A stretch of DNA of 57,721 nucleotides from a virus (Duplodnaviria; Caudoviricetes). Shown here one piece after another: positions 12,434-28,561 of the stretch; position 1 is the first letter of the stretch, and each line of letters begins with the position of its first letter. The stretch covers positions 1-57,721 of IMG/VR virus record IMGVR_UViG_3300033153_005042. One strand, 5' to 3'. Position numbers and translations under genes: made by a program. Below the pieces are notes generated by a model that saw nothing but the letters and a program-made list of their open reading frames with translations, ran no database searches and had not been told where the DNA came from.

Positions 12434-12449
12434 TGCAAGTATTATACCT
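12434..12449 (-). promoter_or_regulatory. sigma54-type -24/-12 element
   Basis: AGGTATAATACTTGCA upstream of the VWA gene. Confidence 0.55.
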
Positions 12450-13533
12450 TTCCTCTAGCCTTAAGAATAATATCTTTTAGTTGAGAATCAGCGTCTAACG
12501 ACTTTCTAAACACGTCGTTGTAGTAAAGCTCTTTGATATTAGCGAACATCATTTCCACGGGTATTGCTTTTAAGAATTTGGTTAAGTTGTTGCCTTCTGC
12601 TTTAGTCAGAGCCTTGGTTCGTTTTTTTGCGTGTCGTAGTAAGTTGTCGCACGTAGCCTTTAAAATGTCGCCTCGGTTATCCTTAGGGTCTGAATATTGT
12701 TTGATTTTTTTCTCAATCTTACTGAACTCTTTTAAAATTTGAGTAGCTTTAAAAGGTCTGTCTGCTGATTTTCTAGCCTCCATGAAGGCGATGGCGGCAG
12801 TGCTTCCAACAATACCTATAGAAAGCTCTTGTAATATGTTTATAGGAGTCTTAACTTTAATTAGTCTGTCGACAAATTCATAAGATCTAGCCGAAGGTTT
12901 GATCTCCAAAGAGAAATCATCTCCTTTACTGGATAGCATCTCTGGTTGATCTCTAATAAAATCTACGATATCAGAATCAAATCCAGTGCTTGTTGCGTGG
13001 TCTAAAAACTCTGATACAGTGGGAGCTAACTTAATGTGACAGAACCTGTCCAAGAAGGCTGCGTCACCGATATCAGTTACGATATATTCTTCAGTATTAG
13101 GATTACAAGCTCCTACAACTACCCAACCTTTAGGTAATTCGTACTCATGAATCCTTTTGTCTAATACTAGTTGGAAAGCTGCTTGCAAAACGTCACGTCT
13201 AGCTCTGTTGATCTCATCTAAGAACAAAATACCACAACTATCAGGATCAGTCGGCAACCAACTAGGTCGCATGAACTTGGTGGCGACGTTGTTACCCTTC
13301 TCATCCTTTTCGAAGTCAGCTAAACCTAATAAATCACCTACTTCCATGTTACCTAACCTAAGGTCAATAAAACCGAAAGATTGTTTACCTGTTTTGGGGT
13401 GATCGTACGTCATTTCTTGTGATACTTGTTTAACTGATTGCGACTTACCTACTCCATGCCTACCCCAAATAAGAGTTGGGATATTAGCTTCGAATAAAAA
13501 TGGTAGTGCGTTCTTCATTGATTTGATTTGCAT
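12442..13533 (-). CDS. MoxR-type AAA+ ATPase
   Basis: Walker A GRHGVGKS, Walker B ILFLDE(INRA), GACNP, AFLDRF; next to the VWA gene. Confidence 0.9.
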   Translation of the reverse strand: MQIKSMKNALPFLFEANIPTLIWGRHGVGKSQSVKQVSQEMTYDHPKTGKQSFGFIDLRLGNMEVGDLLGLADFEKDEKGNNVATKFMRPSWLPTDPDSCGILFLDEINRARRDVLQAAFQLVLDKRIHEYELPKGWVVVGACNPNTEEYIVTDIGDAAFLDRFCHIKLAPTVSEFLDHATSTGFDSDIVDFIRDQPEMLSSKGDDFSLEIKPSARSYEFVDRLIKVKTPINILQELSIGIVGSTAAIAFMEARKSADRPFKATQILKEFSKIEKKIKQYSDPKDNRGDILKATCDNLLRHAKKRTKALTKAEGNNLTKFLKAIPVEMMFANIKELYYNDVFRKSLDADSQLKDIILKARGKV

Positions 13534-13583
13534 GAGTAACCTTTCAAGTTAGTTATGAGCTTATTGCTCTTGTATATATTATA

Positions 13584-13599
13584 TGCAGTTATTATGCCA
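13584..13599 (-). promoter_or_regulatory. sigma54-type -24/-12 element
   Basis: TGGCATAATAACTGCA about 50 bp before the AAA+ start. Confidence 0.7.
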
Positions 13600-13603
13600 G
13601 TTA

Positions 13604-14464
13604 TTACTTCTTAATGATATTGTCCCACCTTTTTAAGTCTGTTGCTGGAACAATTCCGCAACCCTCAAATAATTGAGCTAACTGTCTTATAGAACTTTTA
13701 CGGGTACGGTACAAACCGTTCAATAAGCTGTCTAATACTACTACGTCTGATATACCGAAGTCTGTGTAAGGCGTTCGTACCAATTCTTGGTATAACTTAC
13801 ACATAGTGGAGTTCTTTGCTACTACTACTCCGTACAAATACTCGCACACAAACGCTCGTTTTTCTGCGGTACTTAACCATACTATATGTGACTTCAAAGA
13901 ACCTGAACGGAACGTTCTGTAGCGTACGTCGTACGTATCTCTAATATTGTTATTACTTACTAAAGTACTATCTAACTTTTCTCTGAAATACTTGTCGGGC
14001 GACTTTCCTCCCTTACGATAATTTATCGAACTTTCTCTCAGCGTGTTTTTAGATGTCCTTAATAATTTTATTGTAAGAAGTATCGGTTTCGGGGTCGAAT
14101 GTTTATAAATATCTAACAACTTTACCAAGTCCATATCAGCTTTTGAAAAGATTTTGGTTTGTTTGCCTTCGTCGTCCGTAACCTGCAACTCAAAAGTTTC
14201 AGGCAGTCCTTCATAAGTGTAAGGAGCGTTAACATGAAAATGAGGGACTATTGTAGTGAAAAGTCCTAATAACTTAGTATTACCGTGAAGCAATTCCACT
14301 TCAATATCAGCTAGGTCTTTTGTGATTATTTTAGCGCAGTATAAAACTCCGTAATAAGAGTTCTCAGGCACTAAGCTAATTTTTGCTGTAATTTCTTCAG
14401 GAGCGTTTCTTATGTTGTCGCTGTCGCTGTCGTAGTATAACCCTAAAATTTCTCGTAAGTCCAT
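13604..14464 (-). CDS. Hypothetical protein
   Basis: 286 aa ORF with GGAG RBS. Confidence 0.7.
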   Translation of the reverse strand: MDLREILGLYYDSDSDNIRNAPEEITAKISLVPENSYYGVLYCAKIITKDLADIEVELLHGNTKLLGLFTTIVPHFHVNAPYTYEGLPETFELQVTDDEGKQTKIFSKADMDLVKLLDIYKHSTPKPILLTIKLLRTSKNTLRESSINYRKGGKSPDKYFREKLDSTLVSNNNIRDTYDVRYRTFRSGSLKSHIVWLSTAEKRAFVCEYLYGVVVAKNSTMCKLYQELVRTPYTDFGISDVVVLDSLLNGLYRTRKSSIRQLAQLFEGCGIVPATDLKRWDNIIKK

Positions 14465-14483
14465 AATAATCTCCTATCTTATA

Positions 14484-14741
14484 TTATGCAAGGTCTATGC
14501 CATCGAAAGTATCAACTGAAGTCATATTTACTGAAGGTTCTACTACGTATTCATTCATAGTTATACTAACTGAGATTACTTTAATTATCTGTACTGTAGC
14601 TGGCATGTTAGTTATACCTAATATGACCGATAAATCCCTTACGTAAGTTCTAGCTCCGCTCAAAGAAACGAACGCCTCCAAAAACACTCCGTCTCCTTTG
14701 ACTACGTACTCAACTGTTTTGTTTTTATTTTCCGTTGTCAC
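14484..14741 (-). CDS. Hypothetical protein
   Basis: 85 aa ORF. Confidence 0.6.
   Translation of the reverse strand: MTTENKNKTVEYVVKGDGVFLEAFVSLSGARTYVRDLSVILGITNMPATVQIIKVISVSITMNEYVVEPSVNMTSVDTFDGIDLA
14487..14502 (-). promoter_or_regulatory. sigma54-type -24/-12 element
   Basis: TGGCATAGACCTTGCA, within the last codons of the upstream ORF. Confidence 0.7.
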
Positions 14742-14791
14742 CTTCTCACCTTTATCATCACGCTCAGTTTTGAGTGCTTATTAAGTATTAA

Positions 14792-14807
14792 TGCAAGTCT
14801 CATACCA
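14792..14807 (-). promoter_or_regulatory. sigma54-type -24/-12 element
   Basis: TGGTATGAGACTTGCA. Confidence 0.65.
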
Positions 14808-15072
14808 ACTCACCGTAAATAGCCTTTCCTAGTTCTGAGTCATATATAGCTAAGAAGTCTGAACTACACACAACCTTAGTACACTCTAACCGAATTGAGT
14901 AATCACTCCCGTAATATAACATCCCTGCTTTCGATACGCACAAATGATTGTAAGTGAGGCCTAAGAATCTATTTTTAGTGTTTTGTTTTAGGTTAGGACA
15001 CAGTATGTCTATAATCTTTTCTTTGTCCTCTTCTTTAATGTCAAAAACCATCAGTTCATAGTGATTAGTCAT
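14800..15072 (-). CDS. Small protein with tag (YE-hhh-D/N family, non-SH3)
   Basis: YELMVFDI...DSELGKAIYGELV. Confidence 0.7.
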   Translation of the reverse strand: MTNHYELMVFDIKEEDKEKIIDILCPNLKQNTKNRFLGLTYNHLCVSKAGMLYYGSDYSIRLECTKVVCSSDFLAIYDSELGKAIYGELV

Positions 15073-15364
15073 AAATAACCTTTGGCAATTCTTGTTGTAC
15101 TATTTTTGTACACTCCGTAGTAATCCTATTCTCGTAATAATTAGAGTAAGTTGACTTACCTTTTAATGATACGTACTCAATGGTATATAACCAATCGTAT
15201 ACTGATCTTACAGGTGCTTTTACTTTACTTCTACTACTCTTTTGTAACATTGTTTTAAACTCTTTGTCAACTATTTTAAACAGTTTGTTTTTTTCGTCTT
15301 GTACAAAATAGTCTCCAACTTTGTATAACGCTTTAGTTTGTTCTTTCTGGGTGTTATTATTCAT
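15065..15364 (-). CDS. SH3-like protein with divergent tag
   Basis: KALYKVGDY...QELPKVIYD. Confidence 0.65.
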   Translation of the reverse strand: MNNNTQKEQTKALYKVGDYFVQDEKNKLFKIVDKEFKTMLQKSSRSKVKAPVRSVYDWLYTIEYVSLKGKSTYSNYYENRITTECTKIVQQELPKVIYD

Positions 15365-15385
15365 AGTATTTCCTCTACCTTAAGT

Positions 15386-15583
15386 TTAATGTACTGTAGC
15401 TGGCTCATAGCTATCAAAATCGAAAATATCTGACATTTTTACTTCAATCTGACACTCTACTTCTTCTAACTCAGTTCTATAGTTTTCAATGTCAGAGCCT
15501 TCGGCCTCTATTAACAGATAGTTAATATCTTCAGCTCTCTGTTGTAGTGAAGCTAGCTCAATTTGTAATTCCTCTAAAATCAT
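15386..15583 (-). CDS. Acidic coiled-coil mini-protein
   Basis: Start refined to MILEEL after GGAG. Confidence 0.6.
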   Translation of the reverse strand: MILEELQIELASLQQRAEDINYLLIEAEGSDIENYRTELEEVECQIEVKMSDIFDFDSYEPATVH

Positions 15584-15630
15584 AATATCTCCAAAAAGTA
15601 AGGTAGCTTTATTACTACTGTTATTATATA

Positions 15631-15646
15631 TGCAACGTTCGTGCCA
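15631..15646 (-). promoter_or_regulatory. sigma54-type -24/-12 element
   Basis: TGGCACGAACGTTGCA, full match to TGGCACG-N4-TTGCA. Confidence 0.8.
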
Positions 15647-15647
15647 A

Positions 15648-15914
15648 CTACTCTCCATAAATAACATCAGTTAACTCTGAGGCATGGATCAACCAATTAC
15701 AGCTGAACCAAAAGTCAAAATTGCGTGGGTGTTTGGTGTTAGCTGTTCTACAAAAACGTACGGAGTTGCGCTTGACCAGCTCGGTGTGTCCAATTGTTTG
15801 TATAGTGTTGTGGTACCCATCCATATCTTTATTCCACACAGGCTCCAACCAAGAGTTATGAATTGGTTTGCGTACTAGTACTCTATCTCCAACTTTGTAT
15901 AACGCTTTAGGCAT
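15648..15914 (-). CDS. SH3-like mini-protein with tag (KPK..W..M subfamily)
   Basis: KVGDRVLVRKP...ASELTDVIYGE. Confidence 0.72.
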   Translation of the reverse strand: MPKALYKVGDRVLVRKPIHNSWLEPVWNKDMDGYHNTIQTIGHTELVKRNSVRFCRTANTKHPRNFDFWFSCNWLIHASELTDVIYGE

Positions 15915-16119
15915 CCTCGCTCCCATCAGTGCTTGTGTCAGACTTAGCTTTTAGCTCGCCTAACAAGGCTCTAATTCTCTCTAAGCTTTCTTGTACTCTC
16001 CGCTGTCTGGTAGGAAAGTCGTCACCTCTATCTATCTTTACTGGATCTCGTTTCCTTACTAGTAGTTCCTTCTCTGTGACTTTTCGTTTGTATTCTTCCA
16101 AGCTCACTACGTTTGACAT
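15907..16119 (-). CDS. Hypothetical protein
   Basis: Starts MSNVVSLEEYK. Confidence 0.6.
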   Translation of the reverse strand: MSNVVSLEEYKRKVTEKELLVRKRDPVKIDRGDDFPTRQRRVQESLERIRALLGELKAKSDTSTDGSEDA

Positions 16120-16208
16120 AATAGGTATCCTCAAATAATTTCGTTAATTTACTGTCCAATGATTTAAAATTCTCTTTAAACCACTTCCTAAATTCATCTT
16201 GATTCATA

Positions 16209-16418
16209 TCAGTCCTCATAAATAGCCTCTCCTAGCTCTCCTAGCGGTTGTATATCGGACATGTGATAATACCAATCACCACTAATAGTTGCCACTAAAA
16301 CGTCAGACTTACCTATAAATTCGATAGTTCCGATCGTTCCGATTAAATACGTATTATCAAGCCCATAATTATAACCACTCACAATTATAACTCGTTGACC
16401 TTTTTTATATTTTTTCAT
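16209..16418 (-). CDS. KOW/SH3-like mini-protein with tag
   Basis: KKGQRVIIVSG...PLGELGEAIYED. Confidence 0.75.
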   Translation of the reverse strand: MKKYKKGQRVIIVSGYNYGLDNTYLIGTIGTIEFIGKSDVLVATISGDWYYHMSDIQPLGELGEAIYED

Positions 16419-16561
16419 CCTAATAACTTTTTAGACACTTTGTCTATTTTATCATTTACGTTTCTTATTAAGGAGTCAATAGTTGTTTTTTGTTTGATTA
16501 AGGATTCTTTCTCCTTCTTTAGTTCTTGCAATTCTTGTACCAGTTTTAGTGTATTACTCAT
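16415..16561 (-). CDS. 48-aa coiled-coil mini-protein
   Basis: Manual translation MSNTLKLVQELQELKKEK...; fills the gap and is coupled at both ends. Confidence 0.55.
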   Translation of the reverse strand: MSNTLKLVQELQELKKEKESLIKQKTTIDSLIRNVNDKIDKVSKKLLG

Positions 16562-16766
16562 AGATAGCCTTTCCTAGTTCTGACAACGGAGCCATTTCAA
16601 ACTCTTTCCATACTAAAATATCACCATTAAACATCCGAACCTGCCAATCTGGATAGAAATTATCGATTATAATTCCGCCAGTACCTACATAAAAGTCATA
16701 GTATTTTGAACATCCGTTCAGTATTATTAATACTTCGTCACCTTTTAAAAACATTGATTCCCTCAT
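16554..16766 (-). CDS. KOW/SH3-like mini-protein with tag
   Basis: KGDEVLII...PLSELGKAIYE. Confidence 0.75.
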   Translation of the reverse strand: MRESMFLKGDEVLIILNGCSKYYDFYVGTGGIIIDNFYPDWQVRMFNGDILVWKEFEMAPLSELGKAIYE

Positions 16767-16869: not shown

Positions 16870-17181
16870 TTAAATACTAAGTACGTCTAAAAACACGGCA
16901 GCCTCTAAAGAAGACAGTTTTCTGTGAGTAGTGTCAATAATACAACACTCTTCACTCTTCCTTTTACCTAGCTTCTCAGACCATAATTGGTAGCTTGTTC
17001 CACCGCCACCTAACAGAACTAAAACTCTTTTAATTTCTAGTATGTTAGGATTTTTGACGTTGTTTAATCCTTTAGAGGAACACCTAACAATAAAATCACC
17101 TACCTCAAATGAGGGCGTATACTCGCCGCCCAACCTAATCTCGGCAATTACTTCTTTGGTTGTTTTTGGAGCTTTGATCAT
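16870..17181 (-). CDS. SH3-like protein, DSLEY-type tail variant
   Basis: FEVGDFIVR...LSSLEAAVF. Confidence 0.6.
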   Translation of the reverse strand: MIKAPKTTKEVIAEIRLGGEYTPSFEVGDFIVRCSSKGLNNVKNPNILEIKRVLVLLGGGGTSYQLWSEKLGKRKSEECCIIDTTHRKLSSLEAAVFLDVLSI

Positions 17182-17183
17182 TA

Positions 17184-17342
17184 TTACCCTTTCTTCAGTT
17201 TAGAGTTCTTTGTAGAACTTGGTAATACTAATGCAATACCTATACCAACTCTTTTGACTGCCCTACAGTTAATACAAACGTTGTTTAGGTATACTGATGG
17301 ATGTTTGTTGTTACAGTTATTACAAACTTCGTAAATATTCAT
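17184..17342 (-). CDS. 52-aa CxxC-x12-CxxC zinc-finger-like protein
   Basis: Manual translation MNIYEVCNNC...CINC; GGAG RBS. Confidence 0.55.
   Translation of the reverse strand: MNIYEVCNNCNNKHPSVYLNNVCINCRAVKRVGIGIALVLPSSTKNSKLKKG
17232..17247 (-). promoter_or_regulatory. sigma54-type -24/-12 element
   Basis: TGGTATAGGTATTGCA about 50 bp before 17181. Confidence 0.6.
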
Positions 17343-18681: not shown

Positions 18682-18951
18682 CTAAATGTAATAGTTACCC
18701 AATTCAGTTACTAAACCTTTTAACTGGTACGTCTCGTATACTAACTTAGCTCTATCGTGTATCTCTGACATAACATCCTTAGGCGGCCAGCCCTCAAACG
18801 GCTGCCAAATATTCTCTATAATTAGCTCATCTTGCTCTTCTTCCGACAACTCAAAGAAATTGTTAGGCAAATCCCCAGACAAATAGCTACCAGAAGCCTC
18901 TAACCATGCGTCAATCTCTAATTGAGTCATTCCGTATTCATTCTTGATCAT
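18682..18951 (-). CDS. Acidic protein with degenerate tag
   Basis: Ends VTELGNYYI. Confidence 0.6.
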   Translation of the reverse strand: MIKNEYGMTQLEIDAWLEASGSYLSGDLPNNFFELSEEEQDELIIENIWQPFEGWPPKDVMSEIHDRAKLVYETYQLKGLVTELGNYYI

Positions 18952-18978
18952 AATATCATCCTTTCTATTAATGTTATA

Positions 18979-18994
18979 TGCAATAGTAGTGCCA
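18979..18994 (-). promoter_or_regulatory. sigma54-type -24/-12 element
   Basis: TGGCACTACTATTGCA. Confidence 0.78.
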
Positions 18995-19809: not shown

Positions 19810-20028
19810 CTATAAGTACAAAGCTTCTGTTAGTTTGCCACAAATAACGTAATCACGTAGTATACACCCACCGTACCACCAACCACTATCACTACCCTTC
19901 CACAAACCATTAGGATCTTTAATTATATCAAATTCAACCTCATCATCAGTTATCTTAGTAATCTTGATAACATCTCTATCCTTAGGATCAATATAAATAC
20001 TGCCTACTATTATTATGTTCATTATCAC
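19810..20028 (-). CDS. SH3-like mini-protein with tag (KD.VKV..DP..W subfamily)
   Basis: Ends CGKLTEALYL. Confidence 0.72.
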   Translation of the reverse strand: MIMNIIIVGSIYIDPKDRDVIKITKITDDEVEFDIIKDPNGLWKGSDSGWWYGGCILRDYVICGKLTEALYL

Positions 20029-20063
20029 TCCGAATGTTATATTAGCGTATTGCTAGGTATTAA

Positions 20064-20079
20064 TGCAAGTAGTATACCA
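20064..20079 (-). promoter_or_regulatory. sigma54-type -24/-12 element
   Basis: TGGTATACTACTTGCA. Confidence 0.65.
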
Positions 20080-20573: not shown

Positions 20574-20778
20574 AAATAGCCTCCGCTAACTCTCCTAAAG
20601 ATACGTAACTACTTAAAGCCTTAGCATCAGCCCAATGACCAAAAAGACCACCACTCCACAACATCAAATCATCTTTAAGTACTTCAAACACAATAACATC
20701 AGCCATAATACTAGTAACCTTAACAATGTCCTTATCGTCTAAGTTAGTATAAATACCGCCTACTTTAAACTTACTCAT
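20566..20778 (-). CDS. SH3-like mini-protein with tag (KD.VKV subfamily)
   Basis: Ends SLGELAEAIYE. Confidence 0.75.
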   Translation of the reverse strand: MSKFKVGGIYTNLDDKDIVKVTSIMADVIVFEVLKDDLMLWSGGLFGHWADAKALSSYVSLGELAEAIYE

Positions 20779-20971
20779 AAATAGCCTCCGTTAAATTACC
20801 GATAGGAGCGATATAACTTCTATCCATCCAAACCCTATTATCATACTCTTCCTCTTCGTAGGGATCTAAGTCCACCAACACCAATAACCTATTAGTAGAG
20901 AATTTAATAAGCTGGGCTGTCTTACCCTTAGACAAACCCTTAACAATCAACACCTTATTACCTTTAACCAC
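20771..20971 (-). CDS. KOW-like mini-protein with tag
   Basis: KGNKVLIVKGLSKG...PIGNLTEAIYE. Confidence 0.72.
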   Translation of the reverse strand: MVKGNKVLIVKGLSKGKTAQLIKFSTNRLLVLVDLDPYEEEEYDNRVWMDRSYIAPIGNLTEAIYE

Positions 20972-21115
20972 AATTAACCCCCAAATCAGACTAGCGCACC
21001 ATGATTACCTAATATAACCATAAACAACAGTAACTAAGTAACTAACATTAGTATATACACAGTAAGAAATAATAAACATAACACTACTAGACATAATAGT
21101 CTACATAGTAGTACA

Positions 21116-21131
21116 TGCAATAATAGTACCA
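21116..21131 (-). promoter_or_regulatory. sigma54-type -24/-12 element
   Basis: TGGTACTATTATTGCA. Confidence 0.6.
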
Positions 21132-21139: not shown

Positions 21140-21350
21140 AGGTAGCTGTAGTATTGCTAGTTTATTACTATAGTATTGCTATAGGTAAGGTATTGTGTAG
21201 ATAGACTAAGGTATTGCTGTAGGTAGTAGGGTAGTTAGTTAGTAGTAACATGGTAGTATTGCTACTTATGATATATTGTGTATTGCTATGGTATTGCTTT
21301 ATGATAGATAAAGTATACTTGGTTATTGATAGATAGTATTATATGGTACT
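21140..21350. repeat. AT-rich non-coding tract with GTATTGCT repeats
   Basis: About six copies of GTATTGCT in a G/T-skewed tract; further copies near 20048, 20109 and 31625. Confidence 0.55.
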
Positions 21351-22890: not shown

Positions 22891-23130
22891 TTAAACGAAT
22901 ATAGCGTACTCTAAGCTGTCTTTAGGCATTAACCTACTGTTCAGGTAGTATTCTCCCTCAATTAGAAAGTTCCAGTCGCCAAGTACTTCTAGGCCTATAT
23001 AACCTTCATAACGTAGTATAGCAACCTGCATAACCTCCTTAGAGATAGCAATCACTTTATATACTATGAAATAGCCCTCTTTATCAGGGTTGGTGTACCT
23101 ATAAACTTCTCCTACATGAGGCTCACGCAC
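22891..23130 (-). CDS. SH3-like mini-protein, DSLEY-type tail
   Basis: HVGEVYRY...KDSLEYAIFV. Confidence 0.7.
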   Translation of the reverse strand: MREPHVGEVYRYTNPDKEGYFIVYKVIAISKEVMQVAILRYEGYIGLEVLGDWNFLIEGEYYLNSRLMPKDSLEYAIFV

Positions 23131-23175
23131 TGTACTACTCCTAAAATATTAACCATAACACTCACCAAATACTAC

Positions 23176-23191
23176 TGCAAGCTCTGTGCCA
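23176..23191 (-). promoter_or_regulatory. sigma54-type -24/-12 element
   Basis: TGGCACAGAGCTTGCA at the head of the left-arm operons. Confidence 0.78.
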
Positions 23192-23680
23192 AAATGAAAT
23201 TCGATTTAATTCCGTTTCGTAAATGAAAATGGATTTCATTCCGTTTCGTAGACATTGACTACTTTTCCAGAATTTTTTCCGTTCGGATGATTCGGATGAT
23301 TCGGACGCAGGATTGCCTTTGGCATAGAAATTGCGTTAGCAAGAACCGTGCCAGTTCCGCCCATAGCAAGAACCGTGCCAGCTGGAAACTGTCCAGAAAC
23401 TTGACACCTGTAAACCTTCAAGAACCGTGCCAGCTAAAAAACCCAGTCCGGATAGGCAGTTACAGTACGGGTGTTAGAATCCTGACACGTTGCGAAAATG
23501 TACATTGTAACCAACTGATATCACTACTAATTTTCGGGTGACCAACGATTAGACACCTTTGGTTAAGGATTAGACACTAGCAAGAATCGTGCCAGCTAAT
23601 TCTCTAGTCCGGATAGGGGGGTTACTGGTATGGCTATAGTCCGTATAAGTACTTACAGCTATGGCATAAGTGTTGCATAT
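23191..23680. repeat. Repeat-dense divergent control region
   Basis: CAAGAAyCGTGCCAG x4 (23338, 23365, 23417, 23579), TTCGGAYG x3, GTCCGGATAGG x2, IHF-like site, AAATGAAAATG boxes. Confidence 0.8.
23662..23677 (+). promoter_or_regulatory. sigma54-type -24/-12 element
   Basis: TGGCATAAGTGTTGCA about 40 bp before the Gp88-like start. Confidence 0.75.
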
Positions 23681-23717
23681 AGGTATATACAGCAATGCAG
23701 CTGTAGGAGGTAACAAT

Positions 23718-24380
23718 ATGACAAAACTACTAGTAAAGAATGCTAAGATTGCTAAGAGTAGTAACGATACAACTACTATATATAACTTCGGAATTCCAGC
23801 ATTTCAGGCAGCAAGCGGTTTGAGTACTTGCCCATTAGCTGGACAATGCTCTAAAGGCTGTTATGCGCAAGCTGGTGCCTACGCTTGGAGCAATGTTAAG
23901 CAAGCCTATGAATTCAGACTTAAGGCAAGCCAGCAAGCTAATTTTGCTGCTATGGTTCAATTAGAGCTTAACCCTAAAATAAAGACAGCAATCAGACAAA
24001 ACAAACAGTTGACCATAAGGATTCACGATAGTGGTGATTTTTATGATCTAACTTATACCAAAAAATGGCTCAAGCTGATGCGAGACAATCCTACTGTAAA
24101 ATTCTACGCTTATACCAAAATGGTACCAATGTTTAAGGCGCTGCAAAAATCGTGCCAAATACCTGAGAATTTCACCATTATTTTCAGTGAGGGCGGCGTG
24201 ATGGATAGCATGATTCTTGCAGGAGACAGGCATAGCCGAGTGTTCCCTGATGAAAGTTCTTTAATCTCAGCAGGTTACGACAACGCTAGTAAGAATGATC
24301 TAGTAGCAATAGAAGCAGTGAGCGGTAAAATAGGCCTGATATATCACGGGGTTAAGAGTCGGGCTTGGACTACCGACTAA
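23718..24380 (+). CDS. Gp88-like protein (Cys-triad, radical-SAM-like)
   Basis: TCPLAGQCSKGCYA, IRIHDSGDFY, FYAYTK; start refined to MTKLL after GGAGG. Confidence 0.75.
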   Translation: MTKLLVKNAKIAKSSNDTTTIYNFGIPAFQAASGLSTCPLAGQCSKGCYAQAGAYAWSNVKQAYEFRLKASQQANFAAMVQLELNPKIKTAIRQNKQLTIRIHDSGDFYDLTYTKKWLKLMRDNPTVKFYAYTKMVPMFKALQKSCQIPENFTIIFSEGGVMDSMILAGDRHSRVFPDESSLISAGYDNASKNDLVAIEAVSGKIGLIYHGVKSRAWTTD

Positions 24381-24406
24381 TCCTTAGACACTATTGAGCT
24401 GGTACG

Positions 24407-24547
24407 TGCAACAACCGTGCCAGTTCTTAATTTTCGGGCATAGTCCGGATAGGCACTTACAGAATATACACCTGTCAATTCCTTATACACCATGACTACC
24501 CCTAACATACTGTTATCACTATAGCCACACTTGGCACACATACTGCA
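24407..24547 (+). promoter_or_regulatory. Intergenic module 1: reverse sigma54 site / GTCCGGATAGG / TGT-N11-ACA / IHF-like / forward sigma54
   Basis: Reverse site 24407-24422; box 24443; forward TGGCACACATACTGCA 24532-24547. Confidence 0.75.
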
Positions 24548-24575
24548 TTACTATAGATAGAAGGAGGGACTAGAT

Positions 24576-24722
24576 GTGAATATTATAGACCTAATACTTA
24601 TAGTAATAACCAGCATACTGTTTATAAGTTTTCTGTATAGGCTTCATAAGCTAGGAACTATGTTAGACAAAATAACGGAGGTATACAATGACCAACAAAG
24701 CACATTTAACAGCAATAAGTAG
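24576..24722 (+). CDS. 48-aa single-pass membrane protein
   Basis: GTG start after GGAGG; IIDLILIVITSILFISFLY. Confidence 0.5.
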   Translation: MNIIDLILIVITSILFISFLYRLHKLGTMLDKITEVYNDQQSTFNSNK

Positions 24723-25125
24723 AAATAGCCCTAGCGTACCTATGAGACGTTTAAACAAAGCAGGAAGGCTAGGAGCTAAAAGAATGCTAGACTTTGGCTG
24801 TGGTAGAGGTTTGGACGCTACAACGTACGGTCTAGACAAGTATGACCCTCATTATTACCCTGAGAAAGACTGGAAAGTAGCTAAGTATGATGTTATTACA
24901 TGTAATTATGTATTGAACGTTATACCTACTAAGGAGGAACGTACCGCAGTCATAGAGGATATTAGAAACCTGTTAACAAAAGGAGGTATTGCCTACATAA
25001 CTGTAAGAAGAGACATAAAAACACAAGGTTACACTAAGAGAGGGACATTTCAAGAAAATATAACCCTTAACCTAGCTAAACTATGGGAGAATTCTAGCTA
25101 TTGCACATACGTGTTACATTATTAA
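24688..25125 (+). CDS. Class I SAM-dependent methyltransferase
   Basis: LDFGCGRG, YDP, YDVITCNYVLNVI. Confidence 0.82.
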   Translation: MTNKAHLTAISRNSPSVPMRRLNKAGRLGAKRMLDFGCGRGLDATTYGLDKYDPHYYPEKDWKVAKYDVITCNYVLNVIPTKEERTAVIEDIRNLLTKGGIAYITVRRDIKTQGYTKRGTFQENITLNLAKLWENSSYCTYVLHY

Positions 25126-25130
25126 CCCTT

Positions 25131-25298
25131 AGCAAGAACTGTGCCAGTTATTACTGGCGCTTTCTTCTGTAGGTTGTCGTCCGGATAGGTAGTTACGTAA
25201 AGTGTCAATTTATTGTGTACAGGTGTATAATGCTTGGTCAGTTAGGTAAGGTGTAAGTACTTGATATTGCTATAGCTAGACATGGCATGGGTTGTGCA
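25131..25298 (+). promoter_or_regulatory. Intergenic module 2
   Basis: Reverse site and hairpin from 25131; GTCCGGATAGGTAGTTAC 25179; IHF consensus TAAGTACTTGATA 25254-25266; forward TGGCATGGGTTGTGCA 25283-25298. Confidence 0.78.
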
Positions 25299-25326
25299 TT
25301 ATATAATAGTGAAAGGAAGGTGATTT

Positions 25327-25578
25327 ATGCAAGTACACGGAACAATACAATGGCACGACGATAAGGGTTGGGTTACTCATGATATCGAGTACGAAGCTAC
25401 TCTAGAGATAGAGAAGAACTACGGTTGTGACGCTGATGGTAATAGAGGTATCAAGATAGCCTATATATCCGATTACGATTACGAACTACCTTATAGCGAT
25501 ATGTCAGACAAGGACAAAGCTGAAATATACGAACTAGTAGAAGAACATGCAGCAGAGCAAGAACCCTACAACATTTAA
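25327..25578 (+). CDS. Acidic hypothetical protein
   Basis: 83 aa; YGCDADGNRG motif. Confidence 0.65.
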   Translation: MQVHGTIQWHDDKGWVTHDIEYEATLEIEKNYGCDADGNRGIKIAYISDYDYELPYSDMSDKDKAEIYELVEEHAAEQEPYNI

Positions 25579-25589
25579 AAGGAGTTATT

Positions 25590-26165
25590 ATGACTAAGGC
25601 AAAAAAAGTTACTGTTATTCAACCATCTACCAATTTTGGAGGATTGTTAGATATCAAGTTAGGGATGAAAGACGTTATTGACATTATCATGCAAGAAGAG
25701 GAGGATAAACTCACTGCTGAATTAGAACAAGCTATAGTACTAGCTACACAAGCGCAAAAGAATAAGGAGGATTACATAACGGCTATGAAGAGTAAACTGG
25801 AAAAATCATTCCTAGAATTGGTAGCCGCCGCTTTTGGATTGAAAGAACAGGATTGTACCGCTAGTAACTATTCTTATAGAGATAATATTGAAATATCCGT
25901 AACTCATGATAAATCTGACCTTTCTGTAAATAAAAGGTTCCCTTACACCAAAAAATACCTCAAAGGCAGAATCAAGTTAGGTAAAATTTGCAACGATTTA
26001 CAGGACATCGTCTGGCGGTGTGAGCAACGTGTGACACAACTCAATAAGAAATCGAGGAAAGCTAGGACTTTGATCGTCAAACAATTACTTGCCAATACGC
26101 CCGAAGGTGCTACTTTATTACAGCAAGTTACCAAAGCTAAACAATTATTAATAACCCCTAAATAA
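25590..26165 (+). CDS. Coiled-coil hypothetical protein
   Basis: 191 aa, GGAG RBS. Confidence 0.7.
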   Translation: MTKAKKVTVIQPSTNFGGLLDIKLGMKDVIDIIMQEEEDKLTAELEQAIVLATQAQKNKEDYITAMKSKLEKSFLELVAAAFGLKEQDCTASNYSYRDNIEISVTHDKSDLSVNKRFPYTKKYLKGRIKLGKICNDLQDIVWRCEQRVTQLNKKSRKARTLIVKQLLANTPEGATLLQQVTKAKQLLITPK

Positions 26166-26169
26166 CCTT

Positions 26170-26340
26170 AGCAAGAAGTATGCCAGTTAACGCTGGTATA
26201 TTTTCTACAACCTACTGTCCGGACTATGACTACCTTATCCGTAGTGTCTACCATTTTTAGACACCTGACCAATCCTTAAACAGTCTTGCTTACCCTAACT
26301 AGCTGATATTACTAGCACAGGGCTTGGCACACAATCTGCA
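26170..26340 (+). promoter_or_regulatory. Intergenic module 3
   Basis: Reverse site and hairpin from 26170; GTCCGGAC 26217; IHF-like TAACTAGCTGATA; forward TGGCACACAATCTGCA 26325-26340. Confidence 0.75.
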
Positions 26341-26383
26341 TTATATATAGTACAAGGCAATCAAGCCTTATAGGAGGTTCATT

Positions 26384-26722
26384 ATGAAAGCTATTTTAAT
26401 CGACGTAGTAAAAAGGGCGGTTACTCAGATTGATATCCCAGCAGGTATCGAAGCAATCAAACAACAGCTCGGCGTTAGCTGTTTTACAGTTGTCTGTCCT
26501 TTAGACAGTTCGGACGCCGTCTATTGTGACGACGAAGGATTACTAAATAACCCACAAGATTTTTTCACCTTGGGCAATTACCCTCAGCCTATCGCTGGTA
26601 ACGGCTTAATTCTTGGTACAGATTCTGAAGGCCGCTCGGTAGACTGTGAAGCCTTGCTAGAAGATATTCAAAACGACGTTATTTTTATGGACTTGGGAGC
26701 GGTGCTCGCAAACCACGCATAA
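26384..26722 (+). CDS. DUF3846-like protein
   Basis: VYCDDEGLLN...IAGNGLILG. Confidence 0.65.
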   Translation: MKAILIDVVKRAVTQIDIPAGIEAIKQQLGVSCFTVVCPLDSSDAVYCDDEGLLNNPQDFFTLGNYPQPIAGNGLILGTDSEGRSVDCEALLEDIQNDVIFMDLGAVLANHA

Positions 26723-26728
26723 CCTCCT

Positions 26729-26898
26729 TTCAAGAAGTGTGCCAACTTTGTTGGTGCATTTCGCTTAACCTTTCATAGTCCGGACAGGTAGTTACAGGCT
26801 AGTGTCAATTTATTATATACAACTGTCAATTCCTTAGACAGATAGTCACCCAGTAACTAGGTGTTATCACTAGGTAGGGACTTGGCATACTACCTGCA
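26729..26898 (+). promoter_or_regulatory. Intergenic module 4
   Basis: Reverse site and hairpin from 26729; GTCCGGACAGGTAGTTAC 26778; TGTCAATTCCTTAGACA; IHF-like TAACTAGGTGTTA; forward TGGCATACTACCTGCA 26883-26898. Confidence 0.75.
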
Positions 26899-26924
26899 TT
26901 AGTAATAGTGAAAGGAGTACTAAC

Positions 26925-27044
26925 ATGGACAAAAGAGACATAGGCGACATCGTATTAATATTCGTACTAGTGACAGGGATCGGAACAATCGGATTCTTAG
27001 CAGCTTTAGCGACAGTAAAATTATTAAGTCTGGGAGGATACTAA
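26925..27044 (+). CDS. 39-aa membrane protein
   Basis: Manual translation MDKRDIGDIVLIFVLVTGIG...; AAGGAG RBS; stop overlaps the next ATG. Confidence 0.55.
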   Translation: MDKRDIGDIVLIFVLVTGIGTIGFLAALATVKLLSLGGY

Positions 27045-27250
27045 TGAAATTACTACCGAATACTAAGTACACCACTAGGGACGGCACTGAAGTGCTAATA
27101 ACAGACGTTAACACTGAAAATGGCACTAGTTACAAGATTACTGGTAATATTGTCGACAGCTCGGTTAAGATGTCGTGGTTGGATAACGGATCATATTTAG
27201 CCCCAACAGTTAAACACTCATTCGACATAACCCAAGGAGAGAATCCATGA
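27044..27250 (+). CDS. Hypothetical protein (KYxTRxG family)
   Basis: Paralog of 17629-17976. Confidence 0.62.
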   Translation: MKLLPNTKYTTRDGTEVLITDVNTENGTSYKITGNIVDSSVKMSWLDNGSYLAPTVKHSFDITQGENP

Positions 27251-27442
27251 CTACCTCAGAAAAACAAACAGAATACCAAGGATTAACAGATCACCCTAAG
27301 GAACGTTCAGCAAGATTAGACAGATTAAGAGCTATGAGCAAGGCTGTAACAAAGACTACAACCCCACCCCCTACAATAAACTAGGGGGGTAGTTTTACCC
27401 ATATACATATACCCTATATAACACACCACTAAGGAGATTATC

Positions 27443-27772
27443 ATGGAAGCATTCAAAAGAACAACTAAGTCCGCCTCAGGCACTAGCTTAAAAACACATA
27501 TCACAGTATCTTATCCAAAGCTTATTGAGCTATTTGGTCAACCCGACGAAGGTTGCGGTTATAAGGTCAGCGGAGAGTTCACGTTTGAGGCCTCTAATGG
27601 AGAGCTGGTGACGTTGTACGACTGGAAGAGTACCTCACTATACGACGGCCTCTCACAGTCTCCTCAGCAGCTTAGAGAGCGTACTAGCGTAGAGCTGAAT
27701 ATTGGTGGCAATAACGCTATCACAGCTCAGATATTCGCTTTATGGTTACAAGGGAGTTTAGCTACTGCGTAG
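27443..27772 (+). CDS. Phage hypothetical protein
   Basis: GTSL..I..SY..L...FG.P...KV..E...TLYDWK pattern; AAGGAG RBS. Confidence 0.68.
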   Translation: MEAFKRTTKSASGTSLKTHITVSYPKLIELFGQPDEGCGYKVSGEFTFEASNGELVTLYDWKSTSLYDGLSQSPQQLRERTSVELNIGGNNAITAQIFALWLQGSLATA

Positions 27773-27840
27773 GTGAAATGAAAATGAAATTCGATCCGTT
27801 TCCCTTTCGGTAGTGTTTTTACTGCTGGAGGGGAAAAATC

Positions 27841-27872
27841 GGTAATGAGAATGGTAATGAGAATCATTCTCA
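27841..27872. promoter_or_regulatory. Fur-box-like operator
   Basis: GGTAATGAGAATCATTCTC at 27853-27871 matches GATAATGATAATCATTATC at 16/19; perfect TGAGAAT-C-ATTCTCA; preceded by a 12-bp duplication. Confidence 0.6.
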
Positions 27873-27880
27873 AAATCGCC

Positions 27881-27986
27881 TGTGGTATTTTTGACACATG
27901 TCAAAATCCTGACATGTTAGAATCCTGACATGTTAGAATCCTGACACCCTGTCAAATTTTTTGACACTTTGACCAAATTATGGTCA
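27881..27986. repeat. Tandem TGT-N10-ACA boxes
   Basis: TGTCAAAATCCTGACA then TGTTAGAATCCTGACA x2 at 16-bp period (27899-27946), with related boxes on both sides. Confidence 0.8.
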
Positions 27987-27996
27987 CATCTATATA

Positions 27997-28042
27997 TGCA
28001 AGTACCATGCCAGCAACCCACCATAGCAATATCAACCACTTA
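27997..28042 (-). promoter_or_regulatory. sigma54-type element plus IHF site with no obvious downstream ORF
   Basis: TGGCATGGTACTTGCA (28012-27997); IHF consensus TATCAACCACTTA 28030-28042. Confidence 0.65.
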
Positions 28043-28561
28043 GCTCAAATCGACCAATCCTTAGACAGTTTGTGTATATTCTTTACACACTATCGCTTGG
28101 CCTGTTTATAGCATTAGCAAGAACCATGCCAGCGACCCAGATTTTTCTTGGTACGTATATTGCATACGTCCGACCTATCCGGATAAGCAAGTATCATGCC
28201 AACCGTAAAACATAACCTACCGTAATTACAGTAATTCGCTCCAGATCGCCGAGGAAATTTATTACATACTAGTACTAGCAAACTAGCCTAAACGCTCTAG
28301 AGGCTTTATATAGGCGTTATAGAGGCTATATTGTTCTACTATATATACCAGTTTTTGTCATGCCTAGTAAACCTGTAACCTATAGATATTACAGCGTTAT
28401 TCGGCCTCCGCAGAAATAGCCCATTTATTCTCATATTTTAACCTTGCAATATCAGAGACTTACAAGGTTTATTCACTTTTTTTTACTTTACCTCTCAAGT
28501 TATTGCACCCAATGCCGATAGGTAAGTATAACAAGAAACAAACAACAACAAAGGAGTTAAC

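What the first reader, a model, noticed from the sequence alone, without database searches (positions are those of the whole stretch)
12434..28201. A phage regulon built on sigma54 (-24/-12) promoters
Seen: 15 elements of form (T)GGYAY-N7-TGCA with exact GG-N10-GC spacing lie upstream of and co-oriented with genes: minus 12434, 13584, 14487, 14792, 15631, 17232, 18979, 20064, 21116, 23176; plus 23662, 24532, 25283, 26325, 26883. All but 21116 are about 20-60 bp from a start codon. I noticed none in the structural arm. Established: TGGCAC-N5-TTGC is the RpoN consensus, and such promoters need an AAA+ enhancer-binding protein. Inference: early/middle transcription, including many tagged mini-proteins, depends on host sigma54 and so on host physiological state. 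That is unusual for a phage.
Basis: partly seen in the sequence, partly recalled or inferred. Interest (0 to 1): 0.9.

Follow-up and report, generated by a model that had tools for sequence, protein, structure and literature searches.

The report
Phage regulon of sigma-54-type promoters
An uncultured tailed phage carries about thirty copies of the bacterial sigma-54 promoter signature, many of them placed just ahead of its small early genes, which suggests that it relies on an unusual, tightly gated host transcription route that had been reported for only single phage promoters.

Summary
The pattern as written (N7) is off by one. GGYAY-N6-TGCA, which has the stated GG-N10-GC spacing, occurs 20 times against 0.86 expected. 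A matrix scan finds 31 sites, all within 12,448-28,200 and none in the other 42 kb.

Positions not used in the search also fit the sigma-54 consensus TGGCAC-N5-TTGCW. There are two classes:
- Class A: 19 sites (TTGCAT type). 14 lie 24-57 nt upstream of a co-oriented start codon with a Shine-Dalgarno sequence (random: about 1-2). The 12 with long leaders have a hairpin that starts 11-17 nt after the -12 C.
- Class B: 12 near-consensus sites with no gene ahead. They form tandem or face-to-face pairs or lie over terminator-like hairpins.

No enhancer-binding protein or rpoN was detected in the window or in ten other viral records tested. The phage AAA+ protein is MoxR/NorQ-like.

Three of five relatives carry the motif in the same genome region. 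The face-to-face palindrome occurs in at least 119 IMG/VR stretches (control 0), usually 0.7-2.9 kb upstream of the large terminase gene.

Best reading: host sigma-54 promoters with an unknown activator (0.6). Rivals: a phage factor's site, a packaging site, an RNA element. The host is unknown and no transcript data exist.

The parts
12433..12449 (-). class A site (AGGTAT-N5-TTGCAT); GC 57 nt before the start of the VWA/DUF2201 gene 11080-12378
   Evidence: hairpin GGGAGG/CCTCCC starts 12 nt after the -12 C
13583..13599 (-). class A site; GC 52 nt before the start of the MoxR-like ATPase gene 12442-13533
14486..14502 (-). class A site; GC 24 nt before the start of ORF 13604-14464
14791..14807 (-). 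class A site (TGGTAT); GC 52 nt before the start of ORF 14484-14741; overlaps the stop of ORF 14800-15072
15630..15646 (-). class A site (TGGCACGAACGTTGCAT, full consensus); GC 49 nt before the start of ORF 15386-15583
16526..16542 (-). class A-scoring site (TTGCAA); 146 nt before the next called start, so its role is uncertain
17231..17247 (-). class A site; GC 52 nt before the start of ORF 16870-17181; hairpin AGTTCT/AGAACT follows
18978..18994 (-). class A site; GC 29 nt before the start of ORF 18682-18951
20063..20079 (-). class A site; GC 43 nt before the start of ORF 19810-20022
21115..21131 (-). class A site inside a 600-bp non-coding stretch; 164 nt before ORF 20771-20953; six AGCAATAC boxes lie upstream (21151-21298)
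23175..23191 (-). class A site; first promoter-like site of the leftward arm; GC 47 nt before the GTG start of ORF 22891-23130
23320..23354 (.). face-to-face pair: + site 23320-23336 (TTGCGT) and - site 23339-23353 (CTGGCACGGTTCTTGCTA)
23366..23380 (-). class B site, 27 bp from the previous one (tandem)
   Evidence: (D1)
23418..23432 (-). class B site (TTGA variant)
23580..23594 (-). class B site
23662..23678 (+). class A site; GC 42 nt before the start of the GP88-family gene 23718-24380
24143..24157 (-). class B-scoring site inside and antisense to the GP88-family gene
24206..24220 (+). weak site (TAGCAT), 14.8 bits, inside the GP88-family gene; may be chance
24406..24422 (-). high-scoring site 26-42 nt after the GP88-family stop, antisense to it
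24532..24548 (+). class A site; GC 30 nt before the GTG start of the 48-aa ORF 24576-24722
25132..25146 (-). class B site just after the stop of gene 24688-25125; its -24 half is the 5' arm of the + strand terminator-like hairpin 25141-25160
25283..25299 (+). class A site; GC 30 nt before the start of ORF 25327-25578
26171..26185 (-). class B site just after the stop of gene 25590-26165; overlaps a hairpin followed by a T-rich run
26325..26341 (+). class A site; GC 45 nt before the start of the DUF3846 gene 26384-26722
26730..26744 (-). class B site (TTGA variant) just after the stop of gene 26384-26722; overlaps a hairpin
26883..26899 (+). class A site; GC 28 nt before the start of ORF 26925-27044
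27996..28012 (-). highest-scoring site (26.1 bits) in the second regulatory region; no gene called ahead; a hairpin follows
28117..28131 (-). class B site
28149..28201 (.). face-to-face pair: + site 28149-28165 and - site 28187-28201, with a CCTATCCGGATAAG near-palindrome between them
24381..24580 (+). repeated intergenic cassette of the rightward arm (also 25126-25330, 26166-26387, 26723-26928). Order of elements: minus-strand site, hairpin, AGTCCGGATAGG..TTACAG box, CAATCCTTAGACA box, TGnTATyrCTA, plus-strand class A site, Shine-Dalgarno sequence
   Evidence: (D4, D6, D8, D9)
12442..13533 (-). AAA+ ATPase P0001, MoxR/NorQ-like. It was considered as an activator and rejected
   Evidence: its orthologues do not track the motif
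7050..7913 (-). P0002, a protein with a sigma-70 region-4-like C-terminus. It was considered as the reader of the motif
   Evidence: orthologues occur in all five relatives, whether or not they carry the motif

Best explanation
The repeated element is a true sigma-54 (RpoN) -24/-12 promoter element read by the host's sigma-54 RNA polymerase.

In this phage, about 14-19 'class A' copies (TGGYAY-N5-yTGCAT) serve as promoters of short transcription units for the small early or middle genes of both arms that flank the divergent control region at 23.2-23.7 kb. Transcripts would start about 12 nt after the GC. Many would begin with a short stabilising hairpin, followed by a Shine-Dalgarno sequence and the start codon.

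The 'class B' copies are near-perfect consensus sites, CTGGCACGGTTCTTGCTA. They stand in tandem, face to face with another site, or on the antisense strand at the 3' ends of rightward genes. I read them as strong holoenzyme binding sites that act as compact bidirectional or antisense promoters, or as bound closed complexes that insulate neighbouring units.

Sigma-54 closed complexes cannot open without an ATP-driven activator, and no recognisable activator is encoded. The activator would therefore be a host enhancer-binding protein, possibly acting from solution at the leftward promoters, or an unrecognised phage factor.

Shown: the motif, its statistics, its placement, the hairpins, its recurrence in relatives, and the lack of a recognisable phage EBP or rpoN.
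Inferred: that sigma-54 reads it, where transcripts start, and who activates.
For: 1. Statistics: 20 sites against 0.86 expected; 21 against 0.50 for the stricter consensus; 31 matrix hits, all within 16 kb of the 57.7-kb window.
2. Fit to the consensus quoted in PMC12316311 (TGGCAC-N5-7-TTGCT, passage) at positions not used in the search: T before GG 19/20, Y then R after TGGCA, T before TGC 15/20, T after TGCA 16/20, spacer variable.
3. Placement: 14 of 19 class A sites lie 24-57 nt before a co-oriented start codon with a Shine-Dalgarno sequence, against 1.07 (largest 5) or 2.1 (largest 8) for random placement.
4. Hairpins: at the 12 long-leader sites a hairpin begins 11-17 nt after the -12 C. 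Mean energy is -5.9 kcal/mol against -2.07 +/- 0.60 for random segments (0 of 1000) and -1.7 for shuffles (0 of 300).
5. No competing promoter class: sigma-70-like sites are not enriched in 12-31 kb (53 found, 59.0 +/- 7.9 expected), and no fixed -10 or -35 column flanks the motif.
6. Relatives: three of five near-complete relatives (capsid 65-69% identical) carry clusters in the same genome region. Their early genes are otherwise unrelated, and the layout around the GP88-family gene is alike in the window and in G002.
7. No phage protein tracks the motif. The sigma-like P0002 has orthologues in all five relatives (40, 43, 23, 23 and 29% identity), and the two ORFs with a matching pattern are a phosphoesterase and a glycosylase.
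8. The same half-site recurs in unrelated viral contigs of 30-68% G+C. Unselected positions again fit sigma-54: R after TGGCAY 97%, W after TTGC 86%. That points to one reader conserved across hosts.
Against: - No transcript 5' end, no host and no rpoN test are available. The look-up of sequencing runs listed nothing.
- No PF00158 activator and no PF04552 sigma-54 domain were detected in the window, in five relatives (one 13.4-bit hit below cut-off in G004) or in five unrelated motif-bearing records. No GAFTGA or RpoN-box peptide appears in the six frames.
- The 11 leftward class A sites share no upstream 8-mer in more than 3 of them, so no common enhancer is visible.
- 12 sites face no gene.
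- Tandem sites 27-29 bp apart, and face-to-face sites whose -12 elements are 3-8 bp apart, look like operators of a multimeric DNA-binding protein. Two holoenzymes could hardly occupy a pair at once (inference).
- In other phages the arrays lie 0.7-2.9 kb upstream of the large terminase gene in 52 of 53 loci, which also suits a packaging site.
- Two of five relatives (G001, G005) carry 1 and 0 sites. The two related phage contigs in MAG bins had no match to the stricter pattern.
- The three nearest cultured phages by terminase have 0, 2 and 0 matches.
- The 12 hairpin sites were chosen after seeing the data.
Confidence: 0.6

Rival explanations
1. The motif is read by a phage-encoded factor: the sigma-like P0002, another unrecognised sigma or RNA polymerase cofactor, or a multimeric repressor or activator. 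Class A copies would then be phage-specific middle promoters or operators, and the arrays would be cooperative operator clusters. The likeness to the sigma-54 consensus would be chance, or mimicry that competes with sigma-54.
For: - The phage encodes a protein with sigma-70 region 4 (PF04545, E 1.6e-10; weak FliA/sigma matches).
- Tandem spacing of 27-29 bp and palindromic pairs resemble operator arrays.
- No EBP is encoded.
- Four TGnTAGAATCC elements, all rightward and intergenic, could be the true host sigma-70 early promoters that would express such a factor first.
- Presence among relatives is patchy.
Against: - The two conserved blocks are 5 nt apart, which no sigma-70-family factor is known to use (established knowledge). 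No -35 or -10 columns appear.
- P0002 orthologues do not track the motif. G001 (40% identical) has 1 site, while G003 and G004 (23%) have clusters.
- No other protein has the matching phyletic pattern. tblastn can miss small, fast-evolving proteins.
- The same motif appears in phages of 30-68% G+C whose neighbouring genes fall into many families.
- A chance match to about 11 consensus positions at the right spacing is very unlikely.
Confidence: 0.2
2. The arrays and face-to-face pairs (class B) are not promoters. They would be binding sites for the packaging machinery (small terminase; a pac- or cos-type recognition region) or for a replication or partition protein. Class A copies would be secondary or unrelated uses of the same sequence.
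For: - In IMG/VR the palindromic pair lies upstream of a large terminase gene (phrog_2 type) in 52 of the 53 loci that hold one within 3 kb, at 0.7-2.9 kb.
- Arrays with periods of 41-54 bp resemble centromere- or cosB-like repeats.
- Several arrays lie near contig ends.
- In the window's family the clusters lie 1-10 kb upstream of the terminase genes.
Against: - It cannot explain 14 co-oriented sites at a fixed distance from start codons over 16 kb.
- The ORF in the small-terminase position belongs to at least 15 different blastp clusters while the motif stays the same.
- In G004, whose record is classed as having direct terminal repeats, the cluster is about 20 kb from the record's ends.
- In the window the nearest site is 5.2 kb from the candidate small-terminase ORF at 33388.
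- A position upstream of the packaging operon equally suits a late or bidirectional promoter.
Confidence: 0.1
3. The conserved block plus the hairpin acts in RNA. It would be a processing or stabilising signal in long transcripts that start at other promoters, so the motif would be transcribed rather than being a promoter.
For: - Hairpins directly follow 12 sites.
- Three minus-strand copies overlap + strand terminator-like hairpins.
- The genes are densely packed in long co-oriented arms and could be read through.
Against: - The two blocks are not complementary to each other, and the spacer is free to vary.
- 12 copies lie antisense to, or outside, any transcript this model needs.
- No Rfam family matches there.
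- The match to the sigma-54 DNA consensus would be unexplained.
Confidence: 0.05

Closest known systems
Bacterial sigma-54 (RpoN) -24/-12 promoters with enhancer-binding proteins
   Same: The GG and GC doublets are exactly 10 bp apart. The extended consensus TGGCAC(G/A)-N4-TTGC(A/T) is present and the spacer is variable. The sites lie upstream of genes and face them (consensus from a passage in PMC12316311).
   Different: There are about 31 copies in 16 kb of a phage. By contrast, two 3.5-Mb rpoN-bearing MAGs have 2 and 0 strict matches. No cognate EBP gene lies nearby or anywhere in the phage records tested. No shared upstream enhancer is seen at the leftward sites. Tandem and face-to-face arrangements are present.
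Sigma-54-like promoter of Pseudomonas phage YuA
   Same: This is a phage promoter assigned to host sigma-54. A passage in PMC10914365 cites Ceyssens et al. 2008, which I did not see.
   Different: YuA has one such promoter region (P015) beside a sigma-70 promoter and phage-specific promoters. Here it is the dominant recurring promoter-like motif. The nearest cultured relatives by terminase have no cluster.
Tandem strong early promoters of T7-like phages (A1, A2, A3), recalled and not checked in a call
   Same: Several strong promoter sites for host polymerase are packed into a few hundred bp of a control region.
   Different: Those are sigma-70 promoters, all pointing one way. Here the sites are sigma-54-type, many stand face to face, and sigma-54 cannot fire without an activator.
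Htm (Gp204) of Mosigvirus AV110, a phage AAA+ protein structurally like bEBPs (preprint 10.64898/2026.10.06.757011; passages)
   Same: It is a proposal that a phage AAA+ protein without GAFTGA could act on sigma-54 polymerase. The window also encodes an AAA+ protein inside the regulon.
   Different: The window's AAA+ protein (P0001) is closest to NorQ/CbbQ MoxR ATPases and is paired with a VWA protein. Its orthologues are absent from motif-bearing G002 and G003 and present in motif-free G001 and G005.
Operator or centromere-like repeat arrays (lambda operators, F sopC, lambda cosB), recalled and not checked in a call
   Same: They are short palindromic or repeated sites at 27-54 bp periods in a control region, near packaging genes in other phages.
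   Different: Those sites are specific to one element's own protein. Here the same half-site recurs across phages of 30-68% G+C and equals a host sigma factor's consensus.

Membership tests
sigma-54 (RpoN)-dependent promoter | Conserved GG and GC doublets exactly 10 bp apart (the -24 and -12 elements) | tested here: met
   20 of 20 sites by construction of the pattern, against 0.86 expected. The N7 version gives 1 against 0.82.
sigma-54 (RpoN)-dependent promoter | Extended consensus TGGCAC(G/A)-N4-TTGC(A/T) at positions not used in the search | tested here: met
   T before GG 19/20; R after TGGCAY 18/20; T before TGC 15/20; T after TGCA 16/20. In 320 IMG/VR half-sites: R 97%, W 86%.
sigma-54 (RpoN)-dependent promoter | Lies upstream of a gene and faces it, at a promoter-like distance | tested here: met
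   14 of 19 class A sites, against about 1-2 by chance. Not met by the 12 class B sites.
sigma-54 (RpoN)-dependent promoter | Transcription starts 11-13 nt after the GC and depends on rpoN | not testable with these tools
   No RNA run was listed. The only indirect support is hairpins that start 11-17 nt after the C.
sigma-54 (RpoN)-dependent promoter | An AAA+ enhancer-binding protein (GAFTGA loop) is available | tested here: not met
   Tested for a phage-encoded one only. There is no PF00158 match in the window or in 10 other viral records and no GAFTGA-like peptide. A host EBP cannot be tested because the host is unknown.
sigma-54 (RpoN)-dependent promoter | Enhancer (UAS) about 80-150 bp upstream | tested here: inconclusive
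   Rightward cassettes share boxes about 50-115 bp upstream of the -24 GG (AGTCCGGATAGG, CAATCCTTAGACA). The 11 leftward sites share no 8-mer in more than 3 of them.
sigma-54 (RpoN)-dependent promoter | The host encodes rpoN | not testable with these tools
   The host is unknown. MAG bins that hold related phage contigs disagree in taxonomy. 3 of 4 bins have rpoN, which is weak evidence.
sigma-70-type promoter | -35 and -10 hexamers 16-18 bp apart, with invariant A and T in the -10 | tested here: not met
   The conserved blocks are 5 nt apart. Columns downstream of TGCAT carry only about 0.3 bit each. Sigma-70-like sites are not enriched (53 against 59.0 +/- 7.9).
bacterial enhancer-binding protein (tested for P0001, 12442-13533) | Sigma54_activat domain with a GAFTGA loop | tested here: not met
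   Pfam gives AAA_5 only. No GAFTGA is present. The best structural matches are NorQ and CbbQ; EBPs rank lower (model pLDDT 75.7).
packaging recognition site (pac/cos, small-terminase binding) | Repeats next to the terS-terL genes, bound by the phage's own small terminase | tested here: inconclusive
   Other phages have arrays 0.7-2.9 kb upstream of terL in 52 of 53 loci. In the window the nearest site is 5.2 kb from the candidate terS. Proteins in the terS position are diverse. Binding cannot be tested.

The most novel reading that the evidence does not exclude
Sigma-54-type sites may be a widespread, unrecognised control element of tailed phages. Arrays of face-to-face TGGCAY-N5-TTGC half-sites stand upstream of the packaging operon in at least 119 IMG/VR stretches from phages of 30-68% G+C. 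In this phage family the element has spread to become the main promoter of the early genes. None of the ten other viral records tested encodes a recognisable enhancer-binding protein or sigma-54. These phages would therefore do one of two things. They may open sigma-54 closed complexes with a new kind of activator, or tap a host activator that infection itself switches on. Alternatively they may use the arrays to capture the cell's scarce sigma-54 polymerase, either as a timing switch or to starve sigma-54-dependent host responses.
Probability: 0.25. Interest if true: 0.9.

Novelty: new variant of a known kind. Interest (0 to 1): 0.8.

Why it matters
Sigma-54 promoters are silent until an ATP-driven activator opens them. 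A phage whose early genes hang on them would tie its infection programme to a host signalling state, or to a phage activator of a kind not yet described.

It would add a promoter class to phage annotation. It would give a sequence marker for host prediction, because the host must carry rpoN. It would also offer tightly off, orthogonal parts for engineering.

The recurrence of the same palindromic pair in at least 119 viral stretches (control 0) suggests that the window is one case of something general. My literature searches did not find this described.

Tried and rejected
- Literal pattern with N7: 1 hit, at chance level. It was replaced by N6.
- Close relatives among cultured phages: none by DNA. 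Terminase identity is at most 28%.
- Nearest cultured phages by terminase (Stenotrophomonas ANB28, Rhizobium RHph_Y2_11, Pseudomonas nickie): 0, 2 and 0 motif hits.
- Arrays from L221 and L185, and the regions around the sites of L169 and L174, blasted against cultured phages: no match or only trivial matches. A 35-nt class B query gave only short hits in coding regions.
- P0001 as the activator: rejected. It is AAA_5/NorQ-like, has no GAFTGA, and has the wrong phyletic pattern.
- P0002 as the reader of the motif: disfavoured by its phyletic pattern.
- The 83-aa G004 ORF with a 13.4-bit Sigma54_DBD hit: below cut-off and has no RpoN box. Dropped.
- Phyletic profiling for a motif-linked phage gene: it gave only a phosphoesterase and a glycosylase.
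- Shared enhancer upstream of the leftward promoters: none found.
- Host through MAG bins: Verrucomicrobiota, Saccharibacteria, Ignavibacteriaceae and Pseudobdellovibrionaceae bins each hold a related contig. That is inconsistent, so the host stays unknown.
- tRNA genes: none.
- Late-promoter motif in the structural arm: none seen by eye.
- ORFs 13.6-23.1 kb and the rightward-arm ORFs: Pfam gave almost nothing for them.
- RNA evidence: the look-up of sequencing runs listed no run, so no RNA holder was listed.
- Complex prediction, the homologue searches and the atlas were not used.
- Supplementary tables of PMC12316311 (class-specific sigma-54 matrices) could bear on the host guess but are closed.
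- The first look at relatives with the ATPase and the sigma-like gene gave 1 distant locus and 0 loci. ORF 13604-14464 gave 0.

Full report
WHAT THE WINDOW IS. The window is a whole IMG/VR viral record of 57,721 bp, estimated to be about half a genome. It encodes:
- a large terminase, a major head protein and a tail sheath on the + strand from about 32 kb onward;
- replication and recombination genes, a protein with a sigma-70 region-4-like C-terminus (P0002, 7050-7913) and a MoxR-type ATPase with a VWA partner on the - strand below 13.5 kb;
- between these, some 50 small ORFs without known families.

Genes run leftward from about 23.1 kb and rightward from about 23.7 kb. No cultured phage is close. 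Capsid searches found 48 related IMG/VR loci, among them five long records of 104-117 kb (G001-G005; CheckV completeness 56, 91, 94, 100 and 100%).

THE OBSERVATION. Read literally (N7), the pattern gives one chance hit.
- GGYAY-N6-TGCA gives 20 hits against 0.86 expected, and no shuffle exceeds 4.
- The stricter TGGCAYG-N4-TTGC with one mismatch gives 21 against 0.50.
- In the logo of the 20 sites, the flanking T before GG (19/20), the T before TGC (15/20) and the T after TGCA (16/20) were not part of the pattern. The five spacer positions are free, and no -10-like or -35-like column appears.
- A matrix from these sites finds 31 sites at 10 bits or more, every one between 12,448 and 28,200.

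This is the consensus quoted for sigma-54 promoters (TGGCAC-N5-7-TTGCT; passage in PMC12316311).

TWO CLASSES. Nineteen sites score 19 bits or more (class A, TTGCAT type).
- Fourteen have the GC 24-57 nt before a co-oriented start codon with a Shine-Dalgarno sequence. Random placement gives 1.07 (largest 5 of 2000 trials), or 2.1 (largest 8) with the strand matched.
- The other five face no nearby start: 16541, 21130, 24421, 28011 and 28150.
- At the twelve class A sites with leaders of 42 nt or more, or with no nearby gene, a hairpin begins 11-17 nt after the -12 C. Mean energy is -5.9 kcal/mol against -2.07 +/- 0.60 for random segments of the region (0 of 1000 as low) and -1.7 for shuffles (0 of 300).
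- I chose these twelve after seeing the sequences. The five short-leader sites run straight into the Shine-Dalgarno sequence.
- A hairpin at the very 5' end of the predicted transcript is what a start about 12 nt after the GC would give. This is indirect support, not a mapped start.

Twelve sites score lower only because they end in TTGCT or TTGA (class B).
- Most are near-identical copies of CTGGCACGGTTCTTGCTA, a full match to the consensus.
- Ten lie on the - strand and two weak ones on the + strand (23321, 24207). None has a gene within 200 nt ahead.
- Four stand in the divergent control region at 23.3-23.6 kb, two of them 27 bp apart.
- Two pairs are face to face with a + site (23320/23353 and 28149/28201).
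- In the rightward arm they follow the stop codons of the genes. Three of them lie over + strand terminator-like hairpins.
- The four intergenic spacers of that arm are copies of one cassette. Its order is minus-strand site, hairpin, AGTCCGGATAGG box, CAATCCTTAGACA box, plus-strand class A site.

WHO COULD READ IT.
- Sigma-70-type sites are not enriched in 12-31 kb (53 against 59.0 +/- 7.9). Four TGnTAGAATCC elements, all rightward and intergenic, could be host extended -10 promoters.
- P0002 is a possible phage sigma-like factor. Its orthologues occur in all five relatives at 40, 43, 23, 23 and 29% identity. The motif (TGGYAY-N6-TGCW) is counted 1, 13, 13, 12 and 0 times in G001-G005, against 26 in the window. 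Motif and P0002 similarity therefore do not go together.
- A search for any G002 ORF shared with G003 or G004 but absent from G001 and G005 gave four ORFs. The two scanned are a phosphoesterase and a pyrimidine-dimer glycosylase.
- The AAA+ protein P0001 inside the regulon is AAA_5 by Pfam and lacks GAFTGA. It models with pLDDT 75.7 and matches NorQ and CbbQ best, with NtrX, FleQ, NtrC1 and PspF lower. Its orthologues are in G001, G004 and G005 and not in G002 or G003. It is not the activator.
- No Sigma54_activat and no Sigma54_DBD domain was detected in the window or in G001-G005 (one hit below cut-off).

RELATIVES.
- In G002, ten of the 13 sites lie at 2.9-10.7 kb. In G003, ten lie at 7.7-12.1 kb. 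In G004, five lie at 92.6-96.6 kb. In each case this is the block of small genes next to the terminase arm.
- The early ORFs themselves have no detectable homologues between these phages, yet the layout recurs. G002 has a face-to-face pair in its divergent region, promoter-like sites before rightward genes, a pair just after the GP88-family gene (the window has a site there too), and a site 57 nt before a leftward start.
- G003 has three tandem sites 29 bp apart.
- G001 has instead ten copies of TATTATAATA in the matching region.

BEYOND THE FAMILY.
- The exact 18-mer of class B occurs in 10 other IMG/VR contigs of 43-64% G+C. Eight of them hold further sites within about 100 bp.
A control with each half-site read backwards gives 0.
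- In the 320 half-sites, the positions I did not fix again follow the sigma-54 consensus: R after TGGCAY 97%, A or T after TTGC 86%, T or C before TGG 75%. The loci span 30-68% G+C.
- Twenty-five loci hold two to four pairs in tandem at periods of about 41-54 bp.
- Five of the records found with the 18-mer scan (G006-G010), searched whole, have no EBP and no sigma-54 domain.
- Gene neighbourhoods: 53 of 128 loci hold a phrog_2-type large terminase within 3 kb, and in 52 of these the nearest site is 0.7-2.9 kb upstream of it.
- These terminases form 33 clusters at 90% identity and 16 at 50%.
- The ORF in the small-terminase position falls into at least 15 blastp clusters.

WEIGHING.
- For the window, promoter function of class A is the most economical reading. 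Sigma-54 is the only known factor with this geometry and sequence.
- The cross-phage constancy of the half-site, against a varied gene background and G+C content, points to a conserved host reader.
- The weak points are serious. No activator is visible. Twelve sites do not behave as gene promoters. The arrays look like operators and sit where a packaging signal or a late promoter could sit. Nothing has been measured.
- I put 0.6 on host sigma-54 promoters, 0.2 on a phage factor's promoter or operator, 0.1 on a packaging or similar DNA site for the arrays, and 0.05 on an RNA-level element.

WHAT IS KNOWN. My searches found the following.
- A sigma-54-like promoter in Pseudomonas phage YuA (PMC10914365, passage).
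- A weak structural likeness of a Pectobacterium phage protein to sigma-54 (PMC7693777, passages).
- Phage inhibitors acting on sigma-54 polymerase (PMC5053324 and PMC7064336, listings only).
- A 2026 preprint proposing a phage AAA+ protein that resembles EBPs (passages).
- No paper describing a phage regulon of sigma-54 promoters or these palindromic arrays. The library does not cover most subscription journals.

I therefore rate this a new variant of a known kind, with high interest. The claim of sigma-54 dependence remains an inference from sequence.

Noticed in passing
window 37431-37763 (+): A group I intron (Rfam RF00028, 77.8 bits). A 54-aa ORF (37325-37489) that is 78-89% identical in four relatives (47% in G001) precedes it, overlapping its 5' end by about 60 nt. 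A 215-aa ORF (37765-38412) follows it. It probably splits the gene that continues as the 501-530-aa ORF ending at 40171.
   Followed up: partly
window 1-1965 (-): The primase-like ORF at the left edge carries a Hint / homing-endonuclease-associated domain (PF05203, residues 421-498), so it is probably an intein. Terminase-like PHROG hits cover the same stretch. Several array-bearing IMG/VR phages have a LAGLIDADG-containing terminase piece.
   Followed up: no
window 21151-21298 (-), also 20047 and 20109: Six AGCAATAC boxes lie within 150 bp, in a 600-bp non-coding stretch upstream of the 21130 site (12 in the window against 2.5 expected). They could be iterons of an origin or an activator binding array.
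   Followed up: partly
window about 27840-27872; L174 about 10815-10835; L221 about 535-555: A Fur-box-like perfect palindrome, TGAGAATnATTCTCA, lies next to the sigma-54-like arrays in the window and in two unrelated IMG/VR contigs. L169, L174 and L221 also share gcgcacgcgag and aatgtggt strings beside it.
   Followed up: partly
window 23472, 27899-27946, 32369 (+): TGTTAGAATCCTGACA occurs three times in tandem (16-bp period), once more at 23472, and as TGCTAGAATCC at 32369. All copies are rightward and intergenic. They are candidate host sigma-70 extended -10 promoters and possibly the true immediate-early starts.
   Followed up: partly
window 23192-23249 and 27782-27810: Two tandem 29-bp repeats, each holding an AATGAAA..TTTCATT palindrome, lie directly upstream of the first leftward site. 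A third copy lies in the second control region. They are probably a regulator's binding sites.
   Followed up: no
window ORFs 14800-15072 (-) and 16554-16766 (-): Two small ORFs end in the same peptide (ELGKAIY...), encoded by near-identical DNA just before a class A site.
   Followed up: no
window 11080-13533 (-): A MoxR/NorQ-like AAA+ ATPase sits next to a VWA plus metallopeptidase-like protein (DUF2201). This is a NorQ-NorD-type pair of unknown role in a phage, and it is conserved in most relatives.
   Followed up: partly
G001 (L147-L152), region 64-82 kb: The relative with 31% G+C lacks the motif. It has ten TATTATAATA copies in the matching early region, which suggests a swap of promoter class between related phages.
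   Followed up: partly
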